Source: Terrimicrobiaceae bacterium
GTDB lineage: Bacteria > Verrucomicrobiota > Verrucomicrobiia > Chthoniobacterales > Terrimicrobiaceae
Assembly (NCBI GenBank): GCA_041752695.1
Contig: JBGSVZ010000127.1
Coordinates: forward strand, 1 to 24,000
Direction of reading: 5' to 3'
Length of the DNA: 24,000 nt
A model generated the notes under the pieces. That model ran no database searches, was not told the origin of the DNA, and saw nothing but the letters and a program-made list of their open reading frames with translations. The position numbers and the translations under genes are program-made. Of this stretch, positions 7,876 to 14,399 are shown in pieces; the first letter of the stretch is position 1, and every line of letters begins with the position of its first letter.

Positions 7876-8262
7876 CTACCAAATCCGCTTCACCCCGTAC
7901 CGCTCGAACACCGGATCCCGGCTGATCACCCGCCAGCCGCGCCGCTGCGCTTGGACCACCTGGATGCGGTCGAACGGGTCGCCATGAATGGGTTCCAAAT
8001 CCTTCACCGCAACCGCGTCAGAAATATCAACGCCGAGAACAGTTATGCCGTTTTCGTCCAAAATGCGCGGCAGATCGGTCTCCAGATCATAAGGGAGTTT
8101 GAGTTTACCGAGGCCCACTTTGATCGCCGCCTCCCAGACGCTGGCGATACTGACGAAACAGACGTCCGACTGCGCAATCATGGTTCCTTTTGCCAATTTC
8201 CCAAAATCGGATTTCCCTTCGAAAAAACCGATCCAGGCATTCGTATCGACCAAATAACTCAC
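7876..8262 (-). CDS. vapC: Type II toxin-antitoxin system toxin, PIN domain (VapC family)
   Basis: 128 aa. MSYLVDTNAWI carries the PIN Asp, with further acidic residues in SVWEAAIK and HGDPFDRI. The start overlaps the upstream antitoxin stop by 4 nt. Confidence 0.85.
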   Translation of the reverse strand: MSYLVDTNAWIGFFEGKSDFGKLAKGTMIAQSDVCFVSIASVWEAAIKVGLGKLKLPYDLETDLPRILDENGITVLGVDISDAVAVKDLEPIHGDPFDRIQVVQAQRRGWRVISRDPVFERYGVKRIW

Positions 8263-8486
8263 ATGTACTCCTTGAACTCTTCCAAGGGATCATCAAAGTC
8301 CGGCGCCATGTAGAATCCCGGTCCTTTTGCGCAGCCAAATTTTGCCTTTTTTTTCACCGGCAAAGGCGCGAGCTCGGCGATCCGTTTTCCGTGGCGGGTG
8401 ATGTAAATCCGACCGCCTTTCTCCACTTCGTCCAAAAGCTGGGAGAGATGCGTTTTTGCCTCAAAGGCTCCGACCTCCTTGATCAT
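8259..8486 (-). CDS. Type II antitoxin, Phd/YefM family
   Basis: 75 aa. The FEAKTHLSQLLDEVEKGGRIYITRHGKRIAELAPL N-terminal fold signature is typical of Phd/YefM. It has a 4-nt overlap with vapC. Confidence 0.8.
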   Translation of the reverse strand: MIKEVGAFEAKTHLSQLLDEVEKGGRIYITRHGKRIAELAPLPVKKKAKFGCAKGPGFYMAPDFDDPLEEFKEYM

Positions 8487-8517: not shown

Positions 8518-10560
8518 TCAAGCCGGCGTCGCTTTCTGCAGGAACTGTTGGTGTCCGAGGACCGCCTTTTCAAAAGCCTCGTGTTCCCCCGCATCCAACC
8601 ACTCCGGAAGTCGGGCGGCAGAGCGCTGCCATTTTGCCAGCCACTCGGGACCGAGCAGCTCGTGACGGCTGGCCAGAGGGGTTTCCCGCGCGGCCGGGGT
8701 GAAAGCGATGGTCGTCTCCTGTTTCGCTCCGGTGCTGCGTCCGCGCGCGACGAGAAATCCCGCGACAAGCAAGGCCGCCCGCGAGGCCGTGGAAACGGTG
8801 TAGGTGAAAAGCTCGGCCGGACGATGGCCGCAGACCGCGAAGAGACGGCGGAACGCCGCCAGCGTCCACTGGTCGCCGTTCGTTTTGCCGGAGAACATGT
8901 CGTAAAAAATTACCTCCGGCGGCTCGGGGGCGAGGGCCATGGATTCCTGGAAATTTCCCGGCACCAGCGTCCAGCTCAGGCCCGGGTGCAGGCGCGATTC
9001 CCAGCGTCCGGTTTTCAGAATTCCGGACGGTCCACCGTGGCGCAGGTAGGTGAAAAGTTCGTTGTATTCAAAAGCCAGCCGCAGCGAGTCGAGATCGTTT
9101 TCGAAGCTGATGAGATGCATGGGCCGGACCGGGCCGGTGGCGGCCTGTTCCTCGTAGCAGCGGATCGCTCCCATCGCGTTGGCGGCCGCGCCGAGACCGA
9201 CGTCCCAGATGACCAGGGGTTCTGACGAAAGATCCGGCCGCACCCGCTCAGCGAGATGGGATTGCTCGATATACAAGCGCCGCGCCTCCTCCATCGGGGG
9301 CGTGCGTGAGTGCATGATTTCCCCGGAATCCACGTGGAGGATGCTGGCGAAGCCCTCCCGCGCGGTGTGGATGCGATACGCGCCGCGGGTGGGTGGTTTG
9401 ACTTTTTTCGGTCCAGGATCTACCGCCGGATTGTCGAGATCGTCCTCCTGGAGGAAGGCGCGCTTGGCGTGATAAAGGTCCAAAAACCGATCCGCCAGAA
9501 TGCTCTCGCGGATCTCCCGCATGAGCTGATGGTAAAAATGGATGTTGTGTTTGCCGAGCAACTGCCAGCCGAGCGTCTCCTTGGTCTTGGTGAGATGGTG
9601 CAGGTAGGCGCGGGAATACCGCGCACAGGTTGGACACTCGCAGGCGAGGTCGAGAGGCTCCTGGGAAAACTTATACACGCCCCGACGCATCTGCAAAAAA
9701 CCACGGGAGGTGAAAGCCCCGCCGCGCTGGGCGACTTGCGTGGGGATAATGCAGTCAAACATATCGACGCCGCGATGCACGGCTTCGAGAATGTCCAACG
9801 GCGTGCCCACGCCCATGAGGTAGCGCGGTTTGTCCTCCGGCAGAAGCGCCGCCGTAAATTCGCACATGTCCTCGCGTTCGGCTTTGCTCTCGCCCACCGC
9901 GAGGCCGCCGATGGCCATGCCGTCGAAATCCAAGGCACAGAGCCCTTCTGCGCTGGCGCGCCGCAGGTCTTTGTACAGCGCGCCCTGCACGATGCCGAAC
10001 ATCGCCTGCAAGGAATCCCCACGCGCCGCCAGACTGCGCACGGCCCACCGCTGGGTGAGTTCGAGGGCGTCGCGGGTGGTGGCTTCATCGGAGGTCGAAG
10101 CCACGCACTGGTCGAGCGCCATCATGATGTCGCTGCCGATGGCAATTTGCGTTTCGATACTCAACTCGGGGCTGAGCAGAATGGTTTTCCCGTCGAGATA
10201 ACTTTGAAAAACCGCGCCCGCCTCGGTCATGGACCGTGAGTGCGGCAGGGAAAAAATCTGAAACCCGCCGGAGTCCGTCAGCACGGAACGCTTCCAGCTC
10301 ATGAAACCGTGAATTCCCCCCGTGTGACGGAACACCTCCGGACCGGGACGCAGGAGCAGGTGGTAGGTATTGGCTAACAGGATCTGCGAACCCGAGGATT
10401 CCAGCGTGTCCGGCCGCTGGGCCTTCACCGTGGCCTGCGTGCCGACGGGCATGAAGAGCGGGGTGAGGACCTCGTTGTGCAAAGTCTGGAATCGGGCCGC
10501 GCGGGCGCTCGACCCGGAGGCCCGGGCTTCAACGCGGAAATTCAGACGATTCATGGGCAA
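8518..10560 (-). CDS. tgt: tRNA-guanine transglycosylase (queuine tRNA-ribosyltransferase) fused to a C-terminal MnmC-like (DUF752-type) SAM-dependent methyltransferase domain
   Basis: Residues 1-372 carry all Tgt hallmarks:
- FMPVGTQATVK
- LANTYHLLLRPG
- TDSGGFQ
- GMAIGGLAVGE
- PRYLMGVGTP
- GVDMFDCIIPT
- Zn site CECPTCARYSRAYLHHL
Residues about 393-620 resemble the MnmC methyltransferase module:
- GEIMHSRTPPMEEARRLYIEQS
- VIWDVGLGAAANA
- HLISFEND
- VIFYDMFSGKTNGDQWT..FRRLF....AELFTYTVSTASRAALLVAGF. Confidence 0.85.
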   Translation of the reverse strand: MPMNRLNFRVEARASGSSARAARFQTLHNEVLTPLFMPVGTQATVKAQRPDTLESSGSQILLANTYHLLLRPGPEVFRHTGGIHGFMSWKRSVLTDSGGFQIFSLPHSRSMTEAGAVFQSYLDGKTILLSPELSIETQIAIGSDIMMALDQCVASTSDEATTRDALELTQRWAVRSLAARGDSLQAMFGIVQGALYKDLRRASAEGLCALDFDGMAIGGLAVGESKAEREDMCEFTAALLPEDKPRYLMGVGTPLDILEAVHRGVDMFDCIIPTQVAQRGGAFTSRGFLQMRRGVYKFSQEPLDLACECPTCARYSRAYLHHLTKTKETLGWQLLGKHNIHFYHQLMREIRESILADRFLDLYHAKRAFLQEDDLDNPAVDPGPKKVKPPTRGAYRIHTAREGFASILHVDSGEIMHSRTPPMEEARRLYIEQSHLAERVRPDLSSEPLVIWDVGLGAAANAMGAIRCYEEQAATGPVRPMHLISFENDLDSLRLAFEYNELFTYLRHGGPSGILKTGRWESRLHPGLSWTLVPGNFQESMALAPEPPEVIFYDMFSGKTNGDQWTLAAFRRLFAVCGHRPAELFTYTVSTASRAALLVAGFLVARGRSTGAKQETTIAFTPAARETPLASRHELLGPEWLAKWQRSAARLPEWLDAGEHEAFEKAVLGHQQFLQKATPA

Positions 10561-10716: not shown

Positions 10717-11763
10717 TCAACGAACCGGCGCGTGGCAAAACCCTCCGCCATGTTTGGCGGCATATTGCTGATGGTATTCCTCAGCCCGGTAAAAGGGGCC
10801 CGCAAGTTCCACCTGGGTGACAATGGGGTTTCTGAAAGCGCCGTCTTTTTCCAGACGGGCAATTTTGACGCGGGTGGCGGCCTCTTGTTGCGGTGTGGTG
10901 AAAAACACTGCCGAGCGGTAGTTGTCGCCCACGTCAAACCCCTGACGGTTCAAGGTGGTGGGATTATGGATATCGAAGAGCCCGTCCAGCAACTGCGCGT
11001 AAGAGACGACAGCCGGATCGTAATCCACCTTCACCACTTCAGCATGGCCGGTCCTGTGGGAGCAAACCTGGTCGTAGGTCGGATCCTGTGTCGAGCCTCC
11101 CGCATAGCCGACCGCGGTCGCGGTGACGCCCTTCATCTTGCTGAAGGCTTCTTCCACGCCCCAGAAGCAACCTGCCCCGAAGATGGCTGTCTCTGTTTGG
11201 CGCGGAGCCTTATCCTGAAAACTCAGCGAGGCAGAGTTGATGCAGTAACGCAGACCGGTGGGTACGGGACCATCTGAAAAGACATGGCCAAGATGCGTGT
11301 CGCACCGGGCGCAATGGATCTCGTCGCGCGCCATGCCATAACTCACATCCCGGTCTGTCGCGACATTTTCCGCCGCGACCGGCTGGAAAAAGCTGGGCCA
11401 GCCGGTGCCGGATTCAAATTTCGCATCTGATCGGAAGAGCGGCAGCCCGCAGCCCACACAGGAATAGACCCCTTCCTTATGGTTGTCGTGAAACATTCCA
11501 CAGAATGCCCGCTCCGTCCCCTGGGCCCGGGCGACTTTGTATTGCTCCAGCGTGAGGCGGGCTTTCCATTCTTCGTCCGTCTTGATCACGCGGGGAACCA
11601 AAGCGGGTTCGTTGAGAGTGCCGTCCTCCCTGAGGAGGCGAACGGTGACATTTTCCGGTTTTGTTTTCATAGGGTTTGGTTTCGCGCCTGCCTGGACATT
11701 GAGCAGCGAGGCCGCGAAGAGTCCACCGGCAAGGGCGGCGAAGGAGATGACGAGAAATTTCAT
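10717..11763 (-). CDS. msrAB: Secreted bifunctional methionine sulfoxide reductase MsrB-MsrA
   Basis: 348 aa.
- N-terminal signal peptide: [26 protein letters not shown].
- MsrB (SelR) domain with two CxxC Zn motifs (CVGCG, CARCD) and catalytic RYCINS.
- MsrA domain with GCFWG and [12 protein letters not shown].
No thioredoxin domain is present. Confidence 0.9.
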
Positions 11764-12587: not shown

Positions 12588-14399
12588 ATGTCCGTCGCCT
12601 ATCATTCCGTCGGATGGAATCGTCAAAAGCGCCTTTACGATGGGGTGATCGGCGGACTCCTCCTCCTCGTCTTGCTGGCGTACGCCGGGACGGTTTTTCT
12701 TTTCCAGCCTCTGACGACCGCGGAGACGTTCATCATTCGATTCACGGCCATCGCCGCGCTCACGCTGCTCCATGTGATCCTGGCCATCGGACCACTAGCC
12801 CGGCTGGACCCCCGCTTTTTGCCGTTGCTGTACAATCGCCGCCATCTGGGGGTGACGATGTTCGTGTTCGCCGCGATCCACGGGGTCTTCTGCATCATCC
12901 AATTTCACGCGGCTGGTGATGTGAATCCGCTGGTCAGCGTGCTGACCGCCTATCGCCGCGAATATCTGGCGGCGATATCCGGCGGGGAAAGTTTCGGGTA
13001 TTTTCCTTTTGAAGCGCTGGGCCTCGCCGCGCTGGGGATCTTCTTTCTCATGGCCGCAACAAGTCATGATTTTTGGCTGAAGAATCTGGGGCCATCGTTT
13101 TGGAAGATCCTGCACATGCTGGTCTATCTCGCCTATGGTCTGGTGCTCGCGCACGTCTTTCTCGGAGCGCTTCAGTCCGAACGGAGTCCATTTTTTCCCG
13201 CGGTGCTGGGCGCGGGCTTCGTGGGACTCGTCGGGATGCATCTGGCCGCGTTTGCGCAAGAGCGCCGGCGCGACCGCCTGCGGCAGGAGGCCGCCCGGAA
13301 TGGGTTTGTTTCCGTGGCCACGCTGGGAGATTTGCAACCGGATCTCGGACATGTGGCATTGCTGAACGGCGAGCGCATCGCCCTTTTCCTGCGCGGAGGC
13401 AAAGTCTTTGCCCTATCCAATGTCTGCCGGCATCAGGGCGGCCCGCTGGGTGAGGGACGGATTGTCAACGGCTGCCTGACCTGCCCCTGGCACGGATACC
13501 AATACAAGGTGGAAGACGGGTGCAGCCCTCCGCCGTTTACGGAGGTCGTCCCCACGTATTCCGTGCAGGTGATCGGTCAGGAAATTCATGTTTCGTCCGA
13601 TCCGCTTCCCCTCGGGACGCGGTCCGAGGGCGTGGCGGCTGGGAAGGCGGAGGATTCCCGATCTTCCGGAGAGTTTTACATTGGCTGGCAATCGAAGATT
13701 CCGGCCGGCCTCGGGAGATCCGTCCGTTCCGTGGTCCTCGGCCTTGGTGTCGCCCTGCCTCTCCTTTTTGTGTTCCTGGCCCATTGGCAGAATCCGGTGG
13801 ATGTGGGGGCGTTCGAGTTCGGGGTCGAGCGGGATTTCTCCGGCGTTCTTTTCGAGTCTCCCCTTCCGCTTCTGCAAGCGGATTGGGGCGATTCGCCTGC
13901 CGGCAAAAATTTTCTTCTCGTGGGAGCGGGCAAGTTCGGGCCGCCCGGGGTGATCAAAGGAAAAAACGGCCAGCGGGTTCGCTTCAAGGGCTCGCTCATC
14001 TACCGGAACGGCGTGACCATGATCGAGATGAACCAGCCCGATTCGTTCGAAGTTCTTGATGAAACCCGCTCGGCCATGCCGCCGCTCACGACGCTGGGAG
14101 AGGGGACGTTTAGCGGGGAACTGGTGGACACCAAGTGTTTCTTCGGAGTCATGCGTCCGGCCACCGGCAAGGTGCATCGCGCCTGCGCCGTCGTCTGTCT
14201 GAGCGGCGGGGTTCCTCCCGGACTTCTCGTGCGGGACGATCACCGCGATGCCGTCGTCCTGCTGCTGGTCGGGGCCGAAGGAAAGCCGTTGGACATCGAC
14301 TTCGAACTGGCGGCCCGGGTGCTGGAGGTTCACGGCAAACTGGAACTCCACAGTGGGACCCCGGTTCTGCGGGTGGACTCATGGAGGGTGAAGGACTGA
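12588..14399 (+). CDS. Multidomain membrane redox protein: ferric-reductase/MsrQ-like 6-TM heme domain, Rieske [2Fe-2S] domain, a seventh TM helix and an unknown C-terminal domain
   Basis: 603 aa.
- The TM region has RRHLGVTMFVFAAIHGVF and WKILHMLVYLAYGLVLAHVF, His-bearing helices like YedZ/MsrQ and PF01794.
- The Rieske motifs are CRHQGGPL (C280/H282) and CPWHGYQY (C299/H302), at nt 13425-13493.
- An extra TM helix spans residues 378-400.
- The C-terminal 200 aa contain three Cys (CFFGV..HRACAVVCLSGG). Confidence 0.8.
   Translation: MSVAYHSVGWNRQKRLYDGVIGGLLLLVLLAYAGTVFLFQPLTTAETFIIRFTAIAALTLLHVILAIGPLARLDPRFLPLLYNRRHLGVTMFVFAAIHGVFCIIQFHAAGDVNPLVSVLTAYRREYLAAISGGESFGYFPFEALGLAALGIFFLMAATSHDFWLKNLGPSFWKILHMLVYLAYGLVLAHVFLGALQSERSPFFPAVLGAGFVGLVGMHLAAFAQERRRDRLRQEAARNGFVSVATLGDLQPDLGHVALLNGERIALFLRGGKVFALSNVCRHQGGPLGEGRIVNGCLTCPWHGYQYKVEDGCSPPPFTEVVPTYSVQVIGQEIHVSSDPLPLGTRSEGVAAGKAEDSRSSGEFYIGWQSKIPAGLGRSVRSVVLGLGVALPLLFVFLAHWQNPVDVGAFEFGVERDFSGVLFESPLPLLQADWGDSPAGKNFLLVGAGKFGPPGVIKGKNGQRVRFKGSLIYRNGVTMIEMNQPDSFEVLDETRSAMPPLTTLGEGTFSGELVDTKCFFGVMRPATGKVHRACAVVCLSGGVPPGLLVRDDHRDAVVLLLVGAEGKPLDIDFELAARVLEVHGKLELHSGTPVLRVDSWRVKD

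What the first reader, a model, noticed from the sequence alone, without database searches (positions are those of the whole stretch)
8518..10560. Tgt fused to an MnmC-like methyltransferase domain: two wobble-base (position 34) tRNA modification activities in one polypeptide
Residues 1-372 are a complete bacterial tRNA-guanine transglycosylase, with the catalytic DSGGFQ and the Zn site CxCxxC..H. Residues about 393-620 resemble the SAM-dependent methyltransferase module of MnmC (DUF752):
- GEIMHSRTPPMEEARRLYIEQS
- WDVGLGAAANA, the SAM-binding glycine-rich loop
- FYDMFSGKTNGDQWT, compared with E. coli MnmC FLDGFAPAKNPDMWT
- ELFTYTVSTASRAALLVAGF, compared with [20 protein letters not shown]

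MnmC(m) methylates the primary aminomethyl group of nm5(s2)U34. The preQ1 base inserted by Tgt also carries a primary aminomethyl group at position 34.

One inference is that the fused domain N-methylates preQ1-tRNA, or another intermediate, to give a non-canonical 7-deazaguanosine derivative. Alternatively, the fusion may simply co-localise the Q34 and mnm5U34 pathways. A roughly 60-aa C-terminal tail of unknown function follows.
Basis: partly seen in the sequence, partly recalled or inferred. Interest (0 to 1): 0.65.

Follow-up and report, generated by a model that had tools for sequence, protein, structure and literature searches.

The report
Second Tgt fused to MnmC2-like methyltransferase
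One real gene joins an extra copy of the enzyme that inserts the queuosine precursor into tRNA to a divergent relative of a wobble-uridine methyltransferase; the fusion is common in soil Verrucomicrobia and is listed in one paper, but what it makes, possibly an undescribed methylated deazaguanine, has never been tested.

Summary
Window 8518-10554(-) is one uninterrupted gene of 678 aa, counted from the likely ATG start.

It is not an assembly artefact. More than 1,800 homologous proteins share the architecture, and 79 of 80 named genome loci do, including cultured Chthoniobacter flavus Ellin428.

- The fused Tgt is a separate old paralog (Tgt2). It always sits beside a stand-alone Tgt1 and almost never occurs unfused.
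- Tgt2 keeps every catalytic, preQ1-pocket and Zn residue, but has lost the invariant Arg286 and Arg289.
- The methyltransferase belongs to a divergent clade ("type A"). It scores 58 bits against the 136-bit MnmC2 equivalog cutoff and has lost the conserved Pro182 and Asn.
- Its sister paralog "type B" co-occurs with it in 12 genomes.

Function is untested. My leading reading (about 0.4) is insertion of preQ1 followed by N-methylation. The plain-MnmC2 reading (about 0.35) is not excluded: MnmG is present in 58 of 58 genomes, and the module also survives without Tgt2.

The fusion type is listed in one sentence of bioRxiv 10.1101/2023.12.21.572861. This scan has met it at least 7 times on other DNA.

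The parts
8518..10554 (-). Whole gene tgt2-mtA: 678 codons from ATG 10554 plus the stop codon at 8518-8520. The longest ORF starts at TTG 10560.
   Evidence: ORF list and translation. Homologs start at MNRLNF.
9466..10509 (-). Tgt2 domain, residues 18-365 in 680-aa numbering. It carries the catalytic Asp96 and Asp269 (Z. mobilis D102, D280), the preQ1 pocket (D150, C152, Q192, GGLAVGE at 218-224, M249) and the Zn site (C307, C309, C312, H338).
   Evidence: Pfam TGT 462 bits and TIGR00430 443.5 bits. Alignment to Z. mobilis and T. maritima Tgt. Conservation table. Positions.
9721..9744 (-). PTQVAQRG, residues 273-280. This is the Tgt2-specific replacement of the canonical PTRxARNG, with Z. mobilis Arg286 changed to Gln275 and Arg289 changed to Gln278.
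   Evidence: R286 and R289 are invariant in 10 of 10 Tgt1 and outgroup sequences. They are replaced in 15 of 15 Tgt2 sequences. The same genome's Tgt1 keeps PTRLARNG.
9385..9465 (-). Inter-domain stretch, about residues 366-392: the end of the last Tgt helix plus a Pro/Lys-rich linker (DNPAVDPGPKKVKPPTRG).
   Evidence: It lies between the Pfam and NCBIfam domain envelopes. It is variable among homologs.
8701..9384 (-). MnmC2-like 'type A' SAM methyltransferase core, residues 393-620. It contains GEIMHS (413-418), the SAM loop WDVGLGAAANA (452-462), SFE (485-487), motif IV FYDMFS (552-557) and GAKQE (611-615, the counterpart of MnmC Lys236).
   Evidence: NF033855 over residues 412-620 at 57.9 bits and PF05430 at 38.2 bits. 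Alignment to 3VYW and 3PVC. Key MnmC residues from PMC3648344. Invariant core across all clades.
8866..8907 (-). FYDMFSGKTNGDQW, residues 552-565. The catalytic Asp554 is kept, but the conserved Pro (E. coli MnmC Pro182) is Gly558 here, and the Asn561 position of the 'NP..W' motif is no longer conserved across type A.
   Evidence: Clade comparison. Sequences of type B, short stand-alone MnmC2 and MnmL-MnmC2 keep D.(F/Y)SP..NP..W. Aquifex MnmC2 has FHDAFSPYKNPELW and Yersinia MnmC has FLDGFAPAKNPDMW.
8521..8700 (-). C-terminal helical extension of the methyltransferase module, residues 621-680, with WLAKWQRSAARLP at 640-652 and HQQF at 670-673.
   Evidence: Conserved in stand-alone relatives. 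pLDDT 91-95. The alignment to Aquifex MnmC2 spans 292 columns for a 295-residue query.

Best explanation
The gene encodes a bifunctional RNA-modifying enzyme whose two halves act one after the other on the same nucleotide.

Proposed steps:
1. The N-terminal domain (Tgt2) is an extra, catalytically intact paralog of tRNA-guanine transglycosylase. It exchanges a guanine in RNA for the 7-aminomethyl-7-deazaguanine base preQ1. The most likely target is the wobble G34 of a tRNA.
2. The tethered C-terminal domain is a divergent MnmC2-fold, SAM-dependent N-methyltransferase. It methylates the primary aminomethyl group of the inserted base. The product would be 7-(methylaminomethyl)-7-deazaguanosine, diverting that tRNA from the ordinary Tgt1, QueA, QueH route to queuosine.

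Shown here:
- Both domains are intact and under purifying selection.
- Tgt2 is a distinct paralog that always accompanies Tgt1.
- The methyltransferase is a divergent MnmC2 relative with a changed residue environment next to the catalytic Asp.

Inferred, not shown:
- The identity of the methyl acceptor.
- The order of the two steps.
- The RNA target.
For: 1. Tgt2 is not the housekeeping enzyme. G000 has a stand-alone Tgt1 on contig C79. In the phylum sample, 11 of 11 fusion genomes have a stand-alone and a fused copy, and 8 of 8 non-fusion relatives have one Tgt. In the order sample, by my cross-tabulation, 47 of about 48 fusion genomes have at least 2 Tgt matches. Genomes whose close module is unfused (G430, G312, G358, G441, G351) have one.

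2. Tgt2 is an old, monophyletic clade (100/100). It is 43-47% identical to Tgt1 of the same genome, and it sits apart from Tgt1, T. maritima and Z. mobilis.

3. In 15 of 15 divergent Tgt2 sequences, all catalytic, preQ1-pocket and Zn residues are kept: D102, S103, Q107, D156, C158, Q203, G229-V233, E235, M260, D280, C318, C320, C323 and H349. So base exchange with a preQ1-type base is retained. R286 and R289 are invariant in canonical Tgt but replaced in Tgt2, and M240R and V122A are fixed.

4. The methyltransferase keeps the invariant core: the SAM loop, the catalytic Asp, and the Lys counterpart of RNA-binding K236. Alone among the MnmC2 relatives compared, it has lost Pro182 and the Asn of NP..W, beside the methyl-acceptor site.

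5. Its sister paralog type B keeps those residues and co-occurs with the fusion in 12 genomes, so the two cannot both simply be 'the' MnmC2.

6. From established knowledge: canonical Tgt acts on G34 of GUN tRNAs and canonical MnmC2 acts on U34 of other tRNAs. A fusion of two unchanged activities therefore gains no substrate channelling. nm5U and preQ1 both carry a -CH2-NH2 group on the wobble base.

7. N-methyl-preQ1 exists in nature in phage DNA, made by the unrelated DpdM.

8. QueF is present in 11 of 11 other fusion genomes tested.
Against: - No experiment exists. No N-methyl-preQ1 nucleoside in tRNA appears in the held literature.
- The type A module also exists as an intact stand-alone gene, not next to any tgt, in genomes with only Tgt1. 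This includes a same-genus relative at 78% identity. So its function does not depend on Tgt2.
- MnmG is present in 58 of 58 genomes with the fusion or type A module, and MnmE and MnmG are in G000. So MnmC2's usual pathway is available, and G000 has no other MnmC2 or MnmM candidate.
- QueA is present in 57 of 58, so a methylated product would compete with normal Q synthesis, with no obvious rationale.
- G000 itself lacks QueC and QueF and would depend on salvaged preQ1.
- Gene neighbourhood gives no support.
Confidence: 0.4

Rival explanations
1. Two ordinary activities in one chain. The C-terminal module is the lineage's functional MnmC2: it methylates nm5(s2)U34, made by MnmEG through the ammonium route, to mnm5(s2)U34. 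Tgt2 is a second tRNA-guanine(34) transglycosylase, perhaps specialised for a condition or a subset of GUN tRNAs. Under this reading the fusion only co-regulates or co-localises two anticodon-loop enzymes.
For: - The fold and sequence are MnmC2. Aquifex MnmC2 (3VYW) is the best structural match over 292 columns, and the E. coli and Yersinia MnmC methyltransferase domains come next.
- The core residues invariant across all clades, and the Lys counterpart of MnmC Lys236, are kept.
- G000 has MnmE and MnmG and no other Methyltransf_30 or MnmM gene.
- MnmG is present in 58 of 58 genomes with the module.
- The module persists as a stand-alone gene after loss of Tgt2, away from any tgt.
- Aquifex shows that a stand-alone MnmC2 with no MnmC1 is a working arrangement.
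Against: - The module scores 57.9 bits against the 136-bit equivalog cutoff. In-phylum MnmC2 sequences score 100-124.
- It has lost Pro182, which is more than 98% conserved in MnmC, and the Asn of NP..W.
- Sister paralog type B retains these residues and co-occurs with the fusion in 12 genomes.
- About half of the order's genomes have neither type, and the 58 genomes tested in this class lack MnmL. G000 has no MnmC1 above cutoff.
- This reading does not explain why the extra Tgt is never the only Tgt, is almost never unfused, and has changed its invariant arginines.
Confidence: 0.35
2. The target or the base has shifted. Tgt2 no longer recognises the canonical U33-G34-U35 loop. It might act on G34 of non-GUN tRNAs, on another tRNA position, on another RNA, or on DNA. 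Alternatively it inserts a base other than preQ1, or the methyltransferase acts on the free base before insertion. The product would be a modified nucleoside at a new site.
For: - Two arginines invariant in canonical Tgt (R286, R289) are replaced throughout the clade, and M240R and V122A are fixed.
- Arg286 lies in helix alpha-B, lining a cavity that connects the ribose-34/phosphate-35 pockets (PMC5395182).
- G000 has 10 further G34 tRNAs outside the GUN set.
- Tgt-superfamily enzymes have shifted to DNA before, as with DpdA.
Against: - The base pocket is strictly the canonical preQ1 type in 15 of 15 sequences.
- The domain scores well above the Tgt equivalog cutoff.
- No PADLOC DpdA-type model matches, and there are no dpd-like neighbours.
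- No dedicated extra tRNA is visible.
- I could not document the precise role of R286 and R289 in RNA recognition from the held papers.
Confidence: 0.15
3. Assembly or annotation artefact: two adjacent genes joined by a frameshift or a lost stop codon.
For: None found. A few long-read MAG loci show the gene broken into pieces, which is the opposite kind of error (L042, L051, L059).
Against: - There is no internal stop, and the frame is continuous.
- All 120 listed homologs have the same architecture, and 79 of 80 independent genome loci do, including a cultured isolate and closed chromosomes.
Confidence: 0.01

Closest known systems
TGT/MnmC2 fusion proteins listed in 'Alternate routes to mnm5s2U synthesis in Gram-positive bacteria' (bioRxiv 10.1101/2023.12.21.572861)
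   Same: The same domain architecture (COG0343/PF01702 plus an MnmC2 domain of COG4121). That paper names it as one of four MnmC2 fusion types besides MnmC1/MnmC2.
   Different: The paper only lists the fusion. It gives no function and no analysis. It does not note that the Tgt is a second paralog, or that the methyltransferase is a divergent clade.
Bacterial tRNA-guanine(34) transglycosylase Tgt (Z. mobilis, T. maritima 2ASH; TIGR00430)
   Same: A full-length match at about 360 bits to solved structures. All catalytic, preQ1-pocket and Zn residues are present.
   Different: It is a separate paralog clade beside the genome's own Tgt1. Arg286 and Arg289 are replaced. It carries a 300-aa C-terminal methyltransferase module.
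Stand-alone MnmC2 of Aquifex aeolicus (PDB 3VYW) and the MnmC2 domain of E. coli and Yersinia MnmC (2QY6, 3PS9, 3PVC)
   Same: The same fold, including the C-terminal helical extension of the Aquifex enzyme. It has the SAM loop, the catalytic Asp and the RNA-binding Lys counterpart.
   Different: About 21% identity and TM about 0.63. It scores 57.9 bits against the 136-bit cutoff. The conserved Pro182 and the Asn of D.FSP..NP..W are lost.
DpdM, the dPreQ1 N-methyltransferase of phages, which makes mdPreQ1 in DNA (PMC10516641)
   Same: It would catalyse the same chemical step as proposed here: N-methylation of the aminomethyl group of preQ1 after a Tgt-family transglycosylase has inserted the base.
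   Different: DpdM is a DUF3109 metal-binding protein with an unrelated fold. It acts on DNA and is a separate polypeptide from DpdA. The window protein has only the TGT and Methyltransf_30 domains.
MnmL(YtqA)-MnmC2 fusions in other classes of the same phylum
   Same: An MnmC2-type methyltransferase sits at the C-terminus of a fusion with another wobble-base enzyme.
   Different: There the partner makes MnmC2's own substrate (TIGR01212, 256 bits), and the MnmC2 domain scores 124 bits and keeps the SP..NP..W motif. MnmL was found in 0 of 58 genomes tested in the window's class.

Membership tests
Bacterial Tgt (TIGR00430 / PF01702) | Profile score above the curated equivalog cutoff | tested here: met
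   TIGR00430 443.5 bits against a cutoff of 306.75. PF01702 462 bits.
Bacterial Tgt (TIGR00430 / PF01702) | Catalytic Asp102 and Asp280, the preQ1 pocket (D156, C158, Q203, G229-V233, E235, M260) and the Zn site (C318, C320, C323, H349) | tested here: met
   All are present in the window (D96, D269, D150, C152, Q192, GGLAVGE, M249, C307, C309, C312, H338). All are kept in 15 of 15 Tgt2 sequences.
Bacterial Tgt (TIGR00430 / PF01702) | Conserved PTRxARNG arginines (Z. mobilis R286, R289) | tested here: not met
   The window has PTQVAQRG. R286 is Q, A, K or M, and R289 is Q in 14 of 15 Tgt2 sequences. Both are R in 10 of 10 Tgt1 and outgroup sequences.
Bacterial Tgt (TIGR00430 / PF01702) | Being the orthologous, housekeeping Tgt of the genome | tested here: not met
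   A stand-alone Tgt1 is present in G000 and in essentially all fusion genomes. Tgt2 is a separate clade at 100/100 support.
Bacterial Tgt (TIGR00430 / PF01702) | Exchange of G34 for preQ1 in tRNA Asn, Asp, His and Tyr | not testable with these tools
   This needs an enzyme assay.
MnmC2 / Methyltransf_30 (PF05430, NF033855) | Pfam gathering score | tested here: met
   38.2 bits against 22.
MnmC2 / Methyltransf_30 (PF05430, NF033855) | NCBIfam equivalog-domain cutoff for MnmC2 | tested here: not met
   57.9 bits against 136. For calibration, in-phylum MnmL-MnmC2 scores 124, short stand-alone MnmC2 100-110 and type B 53-74.
MnmC2 / Methyltransf_30 (PF05430, NF033855) | MnmC2 fold, including the stand-alone-type C-terminal extension | tested here: met
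   AF2 model with pLDDT 91.4 and pTM 0.90. The best PDB match is 3VYW, E 5e-14, over 292 columns.
MnmC2 / Methyltransf_30 (PF05430, NF033855) | SAM loop G-x-G-x-x-x-N, Glu101, catalytic Asp178 and RNA-binding Lys236 | tested here: met
   DVGLGAAAN, SFE, FYD and GAKQE are present. D453, G455, G457, N461, S485 and D554 are invariant across all clades.
MnmC2 / Methyltransf_30 (PF05430, NF033855) | Pro182 (more than 98% conserved in MnmC) and the NP..W signature after motif IV | tested here: not met
   The window has Gly558. Across the 26 type A sequences this position varies and only one has Pro. Asn561 is not conserved in type A. Type B, short MnmC2, MnmL-MnmC2 and Aquifex keep both.
MnmC2 / Methyltransf_30 (PF05430, NF033855) | Methylation of nm5(s2)U34 to mnm5(s2)U34 | not testable with these tools
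   The substrate pathway (MnmE, MnmG) is present. The activity itself is untested.
DpdA-type DNA 7-deazaguanine transglycosylase systems | Match to DpdA or defence-system models, and a dpd gene cluster | tested here: not met
   No PADLOC match. No conserved neighbours in 81 loci.
DpdM (DUF3109) preQ1 N-methyltransferase | DUF3109 domain with CxxxCxxCC metal sites | tested here: not met
   Pfam finds only TGT and Methyltransf_30, plus a sub-threshold DUF7893 match.

The most novel reading that the evidence does not exclude
The fusion makes a tRNA (or other RNA) nucleoside not yet described in any cell: 7-(methylaminomethyl)-7-deazaguanosine, that is N-methyl-preQ1. A dedicated second transglycosylase inserts preQ1 and its tethered MnmC2-derived domain methylates it. 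Because Arg286 and Arg289 are lost, the targets may lie outside the four GUN tRNAs. This would be a second, queuosine-independent fate for preQ1 in bacteria.
Probability: 0.35. Interest if true: 0.8.

Novelty: new variant of a known kind. Interest (0 to 1): 0.55.

Why it matters
Queuosine biosynthesis is regarded as a solved linear pathway with one Tgt per bacterium. Here a large group of soil Verrucomicrobia keeps a second, catalytically intact Tgt. It is always welded to a methyltransferase whose relatives methylate a primary aminomethyl group on the wobble base.

If the two halves act in sequence, this is a new branch of 7-deazaguanine chemistry in cellular RNA and a new natural nucleoside. 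The product would be the RNA counterpart of a base so far known only from phage DNA.

If the halves do not act in sequence, the result still matters. It would define a divergent MnmC2 subfamily (types A and B) that fills the 'missing MnmC' gap in a class lacking MnmC1, MnmL and MnmM.

Databases currently name the protein simply 'Tgt', and they name the stand-alone methyltransferase 'queuine tRNA-ribosyltransferase'. Both labels mislead.

A cultured host, Chthoniobacter flavus Ellin428, makes the question directly testable.

Tried and rejected
- **Assembly artefact:** rejected.
- **Gene-neighbourhood clues:** apart from the fusion itself and ORFs overlapping it, no neighbour family occurs in more than 12 of 81 loci. 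The window's own neighbours are a VapC/Phd toxin-antitoxin pair, MsrB-MsrA, PPDK and a Rieske protein.
- **Link between the fusion and loss of de novo preQ1 synthesis:** G000 lacks QueC and QueF. This was rejected because QueF is present in 11 of 11 other fusion genomes.
- **Earlier scan note that the fusion survives where MnmC2's substrate cannot be made:** not reproduced in this lineage. MnmG is present in 58 of 58.
- **Fusion genomes without QueA** (which would make a preQ1 derivative the end product): not found. QueA is present in 57 of 58.
- **MnmL as a phyletic marker for which paralog is the true MnmC2:** uninformative, because MnmL is in 0 of 58.
- **A dedicated extra tRNA for Tgt2:** none seen among the 44 tRNAs found.
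- **DpdA or defence-system relationship:** no PADLOC match.
- **DpdM homology:** it has an unrelated fold.
- **Residue-level role of Arg286 and Arg289 in tRNA binding:** I could not document it from the held papers. Only its position near the ribose-34/phosphate-35 pockets is cited.
- **Full-length structure prediction:** not run, because the tool returns no coordinates from which to measure distances between the active sites.
Full report
**1.

The window carries one uninterrupted ORF at 8518-10560(-), 680 codons from TTG. Homologs start at MNRLNF, so the real start is probably the ATG at 10554, giving 678 aa.

Pfam finds TGT over residues 18-365 (462 bits) and Methyltransf_30 over residues 531-620 (38.2 bits against a gathering score of 22). 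NCBIfam finds the Tgt equivalog TIGR00430 at 443.5 bits against a cutoff of 306.75. It finds the MnmC2 domain model NF033855 over residues 412-620 at only 57.9 bits against a cutoff of 136.

**2. It is not an artefact**

A search with the C-terminal 296 residues returned 1,851 proteins. All 120 listed carry PF05430 and PF01702 and are mostly 670-700 aa long. Where they are named, the source is Verrucomicrobiota, chiefly Chthoniobacterales.

In 79 of 80 named genome loci the Tgt domain is directly contiguous with the module. These include cultured Chthoniobacter flavus Ellin428 (L034) and closed chromosomes. L031 is a stand-alone module.

**3. The fused Tgt is a second, old paralog**

G000 (5.8 Mb, 97% complete) has a stand-alone Tgt on contig C79 with canonical motifs, including PTRLARNG.

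| Sample | Result |
|---|---|
| Phylum, 11 fusion genomes | All have one stand-alone Tgt plus the fused one |
| Phylum, 8 non-fusion relatives | All have one Tgt |
| Order, about 48 fusion genomes of 151 | 47 have at least two Tgt matches (my cross-tabulation). The exception, G442, is an 84%-complete MAG |
| Order, genomes with the close module unfused (G430 of the same genus, G312, G358, G441, G351) | Each has one Tgt |

Tgt2 and Tgt1 of the same genome are 43-47% identical. In a maximum-likelihood tree, Tgt2 is monophyletic (100/100). It sits across a long branch from a group holding verrucomicrobial Tgt1, T. maritima Tgt and Z. mobilis Tgt.

**4. Tgt2 looks active but has altered arginines**

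All of the following are kept in 15 of 15 divergent Tgt2 sequences (Z. mobilis numbering): D102, S103, Q107, D156, C158, Q203, G229, G230, L231, A232, V233, E235, M260, D280, C318, C320, C323 and H349.

By contrast, R286 and R289 are invariant in the 10 Tgt1 and outgroup sequences but replaced in Tgt2. R286 becomes Q, A, K or M, and R289 becomes Q in 14 of 15. M240R and V122A are fixed.

A held paper places Arg286 in helix alpha-B, lining a cavity that connects the ribose-34/phosphate-35 pockets. I could not document its exact RNA contacts.

**5. The methyltransferase module**

It is a complete MnmC2-type unit. Foldseek ranks Aquifex stand-alone MnmC2 (3VYW) first, with E 5e-14 and 292 aligned columns. 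The E. coli and Yersinia MnmC methyltransferase domains come next.

The residues that PMC3648344 names as key in MnmC2 are the Gly66-Gly70 loop, Glu101, Asp178, Gly179, Pro182 and Lys236. The window keeps the loop, SFE, the Asp of FYD and GAKQE. It has Gly558 where Pro182 should be.

**6. The module belongs to a divergent clade with internal paralogy**

A deep search found 1,254 relatives, many of them stand-alone proteins of 270-300 aa that cover the whole module. These also score below the MnmC2 cutoff, at 63-94 bits.

Scores against NF033855 (cutoff 136):

| Group | Score (bits) |
|---|---|
| MnmL(YtqA)-MnmC2 fusion (L112) from another class of the phylum | 124, with TIGR01212 at 256 |
| Short stand-alone MnmC2 | 100-110 |
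| "Type B" | 53-74 |
| "Type A" stand-alone representatives; the window | 63-68; 58 |

The tree gives the following picture:
- The conventional MnmC2 sequences lie across a long branch (100/100) from a clade that holds early stand-alone sequences, type B and type A.
- Type B is supported at 100/100 and type A at 99/92.
- Inside type A, stand-alone forms are nested among fused ones. The same-genus L128 is sister to the window at 100/99, so the Tgt2 half has been lost secondarily several times.

Stand-alone type A genes sit on long contigs and are not next to any tgt.

Type B co-occurs with the fusion in 12 genomes of the order sample: G303, G313, G325, G326, G328, G337, G338, G360, G372, G381, G389 and G413.

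The only positions conserved in type B and conventional MnmC2 but lost in type A are Pro558 (the Pro182 position) and Asn561 of the D.(F/Y)SP..NP..W signature. The core residues H417, E425, D453, G455, G457, N461, S485, D554, S557, W565, Y587 and R594 are invariant in all groups.

**7. Pathway context**

In G000:

| Status | Genes |
|---|---|
| Present | MnmE, MnmG, QueA, QueH |
| No match, or none above cutoff | QueF, QueC, QueG, MnmM, MnmC1 |
| Only Methyltransf_30 gene | the fusion |

Across other genomes:
- QueF is present in 11 of 11 other fusion genomes tested.
- MnmG is present in 58 of 58 and QueA in 57 of 58 genomes with the fusion or type A module.
- MnmL is present in 0 of 58 genomes tested in this class.

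So both candidate substrates are generally available: preQ1-tRNA, and nm5U made by the ammonium route of MnmEG. Phyletic patterns do not separate the hypotheses.

The gene has no conserved neighbours. The tRNA set is ordinary. No defence-system (DpdA-type) model matches.

**8. Interpretation**

I rank three readings.

(a) *Sequential action on one nucleotide, 0.40.* Tgt2 inserts preQ1 and the tethered module N-methylates its aminomethyl group. Four things favour this:
- Tgt2 is always an extra copy and is essentially always fused.
- Its base pocket is strictly conserved.
- The type A active-site neighbourhood has changed while a more conventional sister paralog co-exists.
- From established knowledge, unchanged Tgt and MnmC2 act on different tRNAs, so fusing them would gain nothing.

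N-methyl-preQ1 is a real natural base in phage DNA, made there by the unrelated DpdM.

(b) *Ordinary MnmC2 plus a second Tgt, 0.35.* Three things favour this: the module is retained after Tgt2 loss, MnmEG is universal, and G000 has no other MnmC2 candidate.

(c) *A shifted RNA or DNA target, or a different base, 0.15.* The arginine replacements prompt this reading.

None of the three can be settled without experiments.

**9. Literature and earlier scan notes**

The architecture is listed in one sentence of bioRxiv 10.1101/2023.12.21.572861, with no functional work. No paper in the held library reports methyl-preQ1 in tRNA or characterises the fusion.

This scan has met the same fusion at least seven times in other genomes. 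That claim is not reproduced in this lineage.

Noticed in passing
G000 whole genome: This genome has Tgt1, Tgt2, QueA and QueH, but no match for QueC, QueF or QueG at 97% completeness. 11 of 11 other fusion-bearing relatives have QueF. It looks like a salvager of preQ1 or another Q precursor. No transporter was searched for.
   Followed up: partly
window 7876-8486 (-): A VapC (PIN) toxin at 7876-8262 and a Phd/YefM antitoxin at 8259-8486 overlap by 4 nt. The cassette begins 31 nt downstream of the fusion gene's stop codon. It is not conserved next to the fusion in other genomes.
   Followed up: partly
window 10717-11763 (-): A 348-aa MsrB(SelR)-MsrA(PMSR) fusion with a hydrophobic N-terminal leader lies directly upstream on the same strand.
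   Followed up: no
L110-L114 (G088, G166, G006, G028; other classes of the phylum): ORFs of 565-650 aa hit Methyltransf_30 strongly. One of them, L112, was scanned and is a MnmL(YtqA radical SAM)-MnmC2 fusion, with the methyltransferase in the C-terminal half. It is not an E. coli-type MnmC2-MnmC1.
   Followed up: partly
L134 (G318:C156:6500-17800): One contig carries a Tgt2 fused to only the first 170 or so residues of the module (a 615-aa open frame). A separate full-length stand-alone type A gene (296 aa) lies about 8 kb away. This may be an intermediate in the splitting of the fusion.
   Followed up: no
G372: This genome has two fusion-like genes. One is a 741-aa frame at 59% identity, and the second is a 672-aa frame at 44% identity. 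It also has a type B gene and three Tgt matches, so the fusion itself has paralogs.
   Followed up: no
G351:C1:1488500-1493500 (L130) and G441:C32 (L131): Close type A modules (56-63% identity) lie in genomes with a single Tgt. In G441 the open frame extends about 270 residues upstream of the module with no Tgt similarity. This could be a different N-terminal partner or just an open frame.
   Followed up: no
G000 contig C96: queH (35345-35869, minus strand) lies about 1 kb from the single tRNA-His(GUG) gene (36938-37012), which is one of the four queuosine tRNAs.
   Followed up: no
window 12588-14399 (+): A 603-aa protein combines a ferric-reductase-like transmembrane domain with a Rieske [2Fe-2S] domain and a long C-terminal region that has no Pfam match.
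   Followed up: no
Database annotation: JGI names stand-alone type A and type B methyltransferases with no Tgt domain 'queuine tRNA-ribosyltransferase'. This label was probably transferred from the fusion proteins.
   Followed up: no
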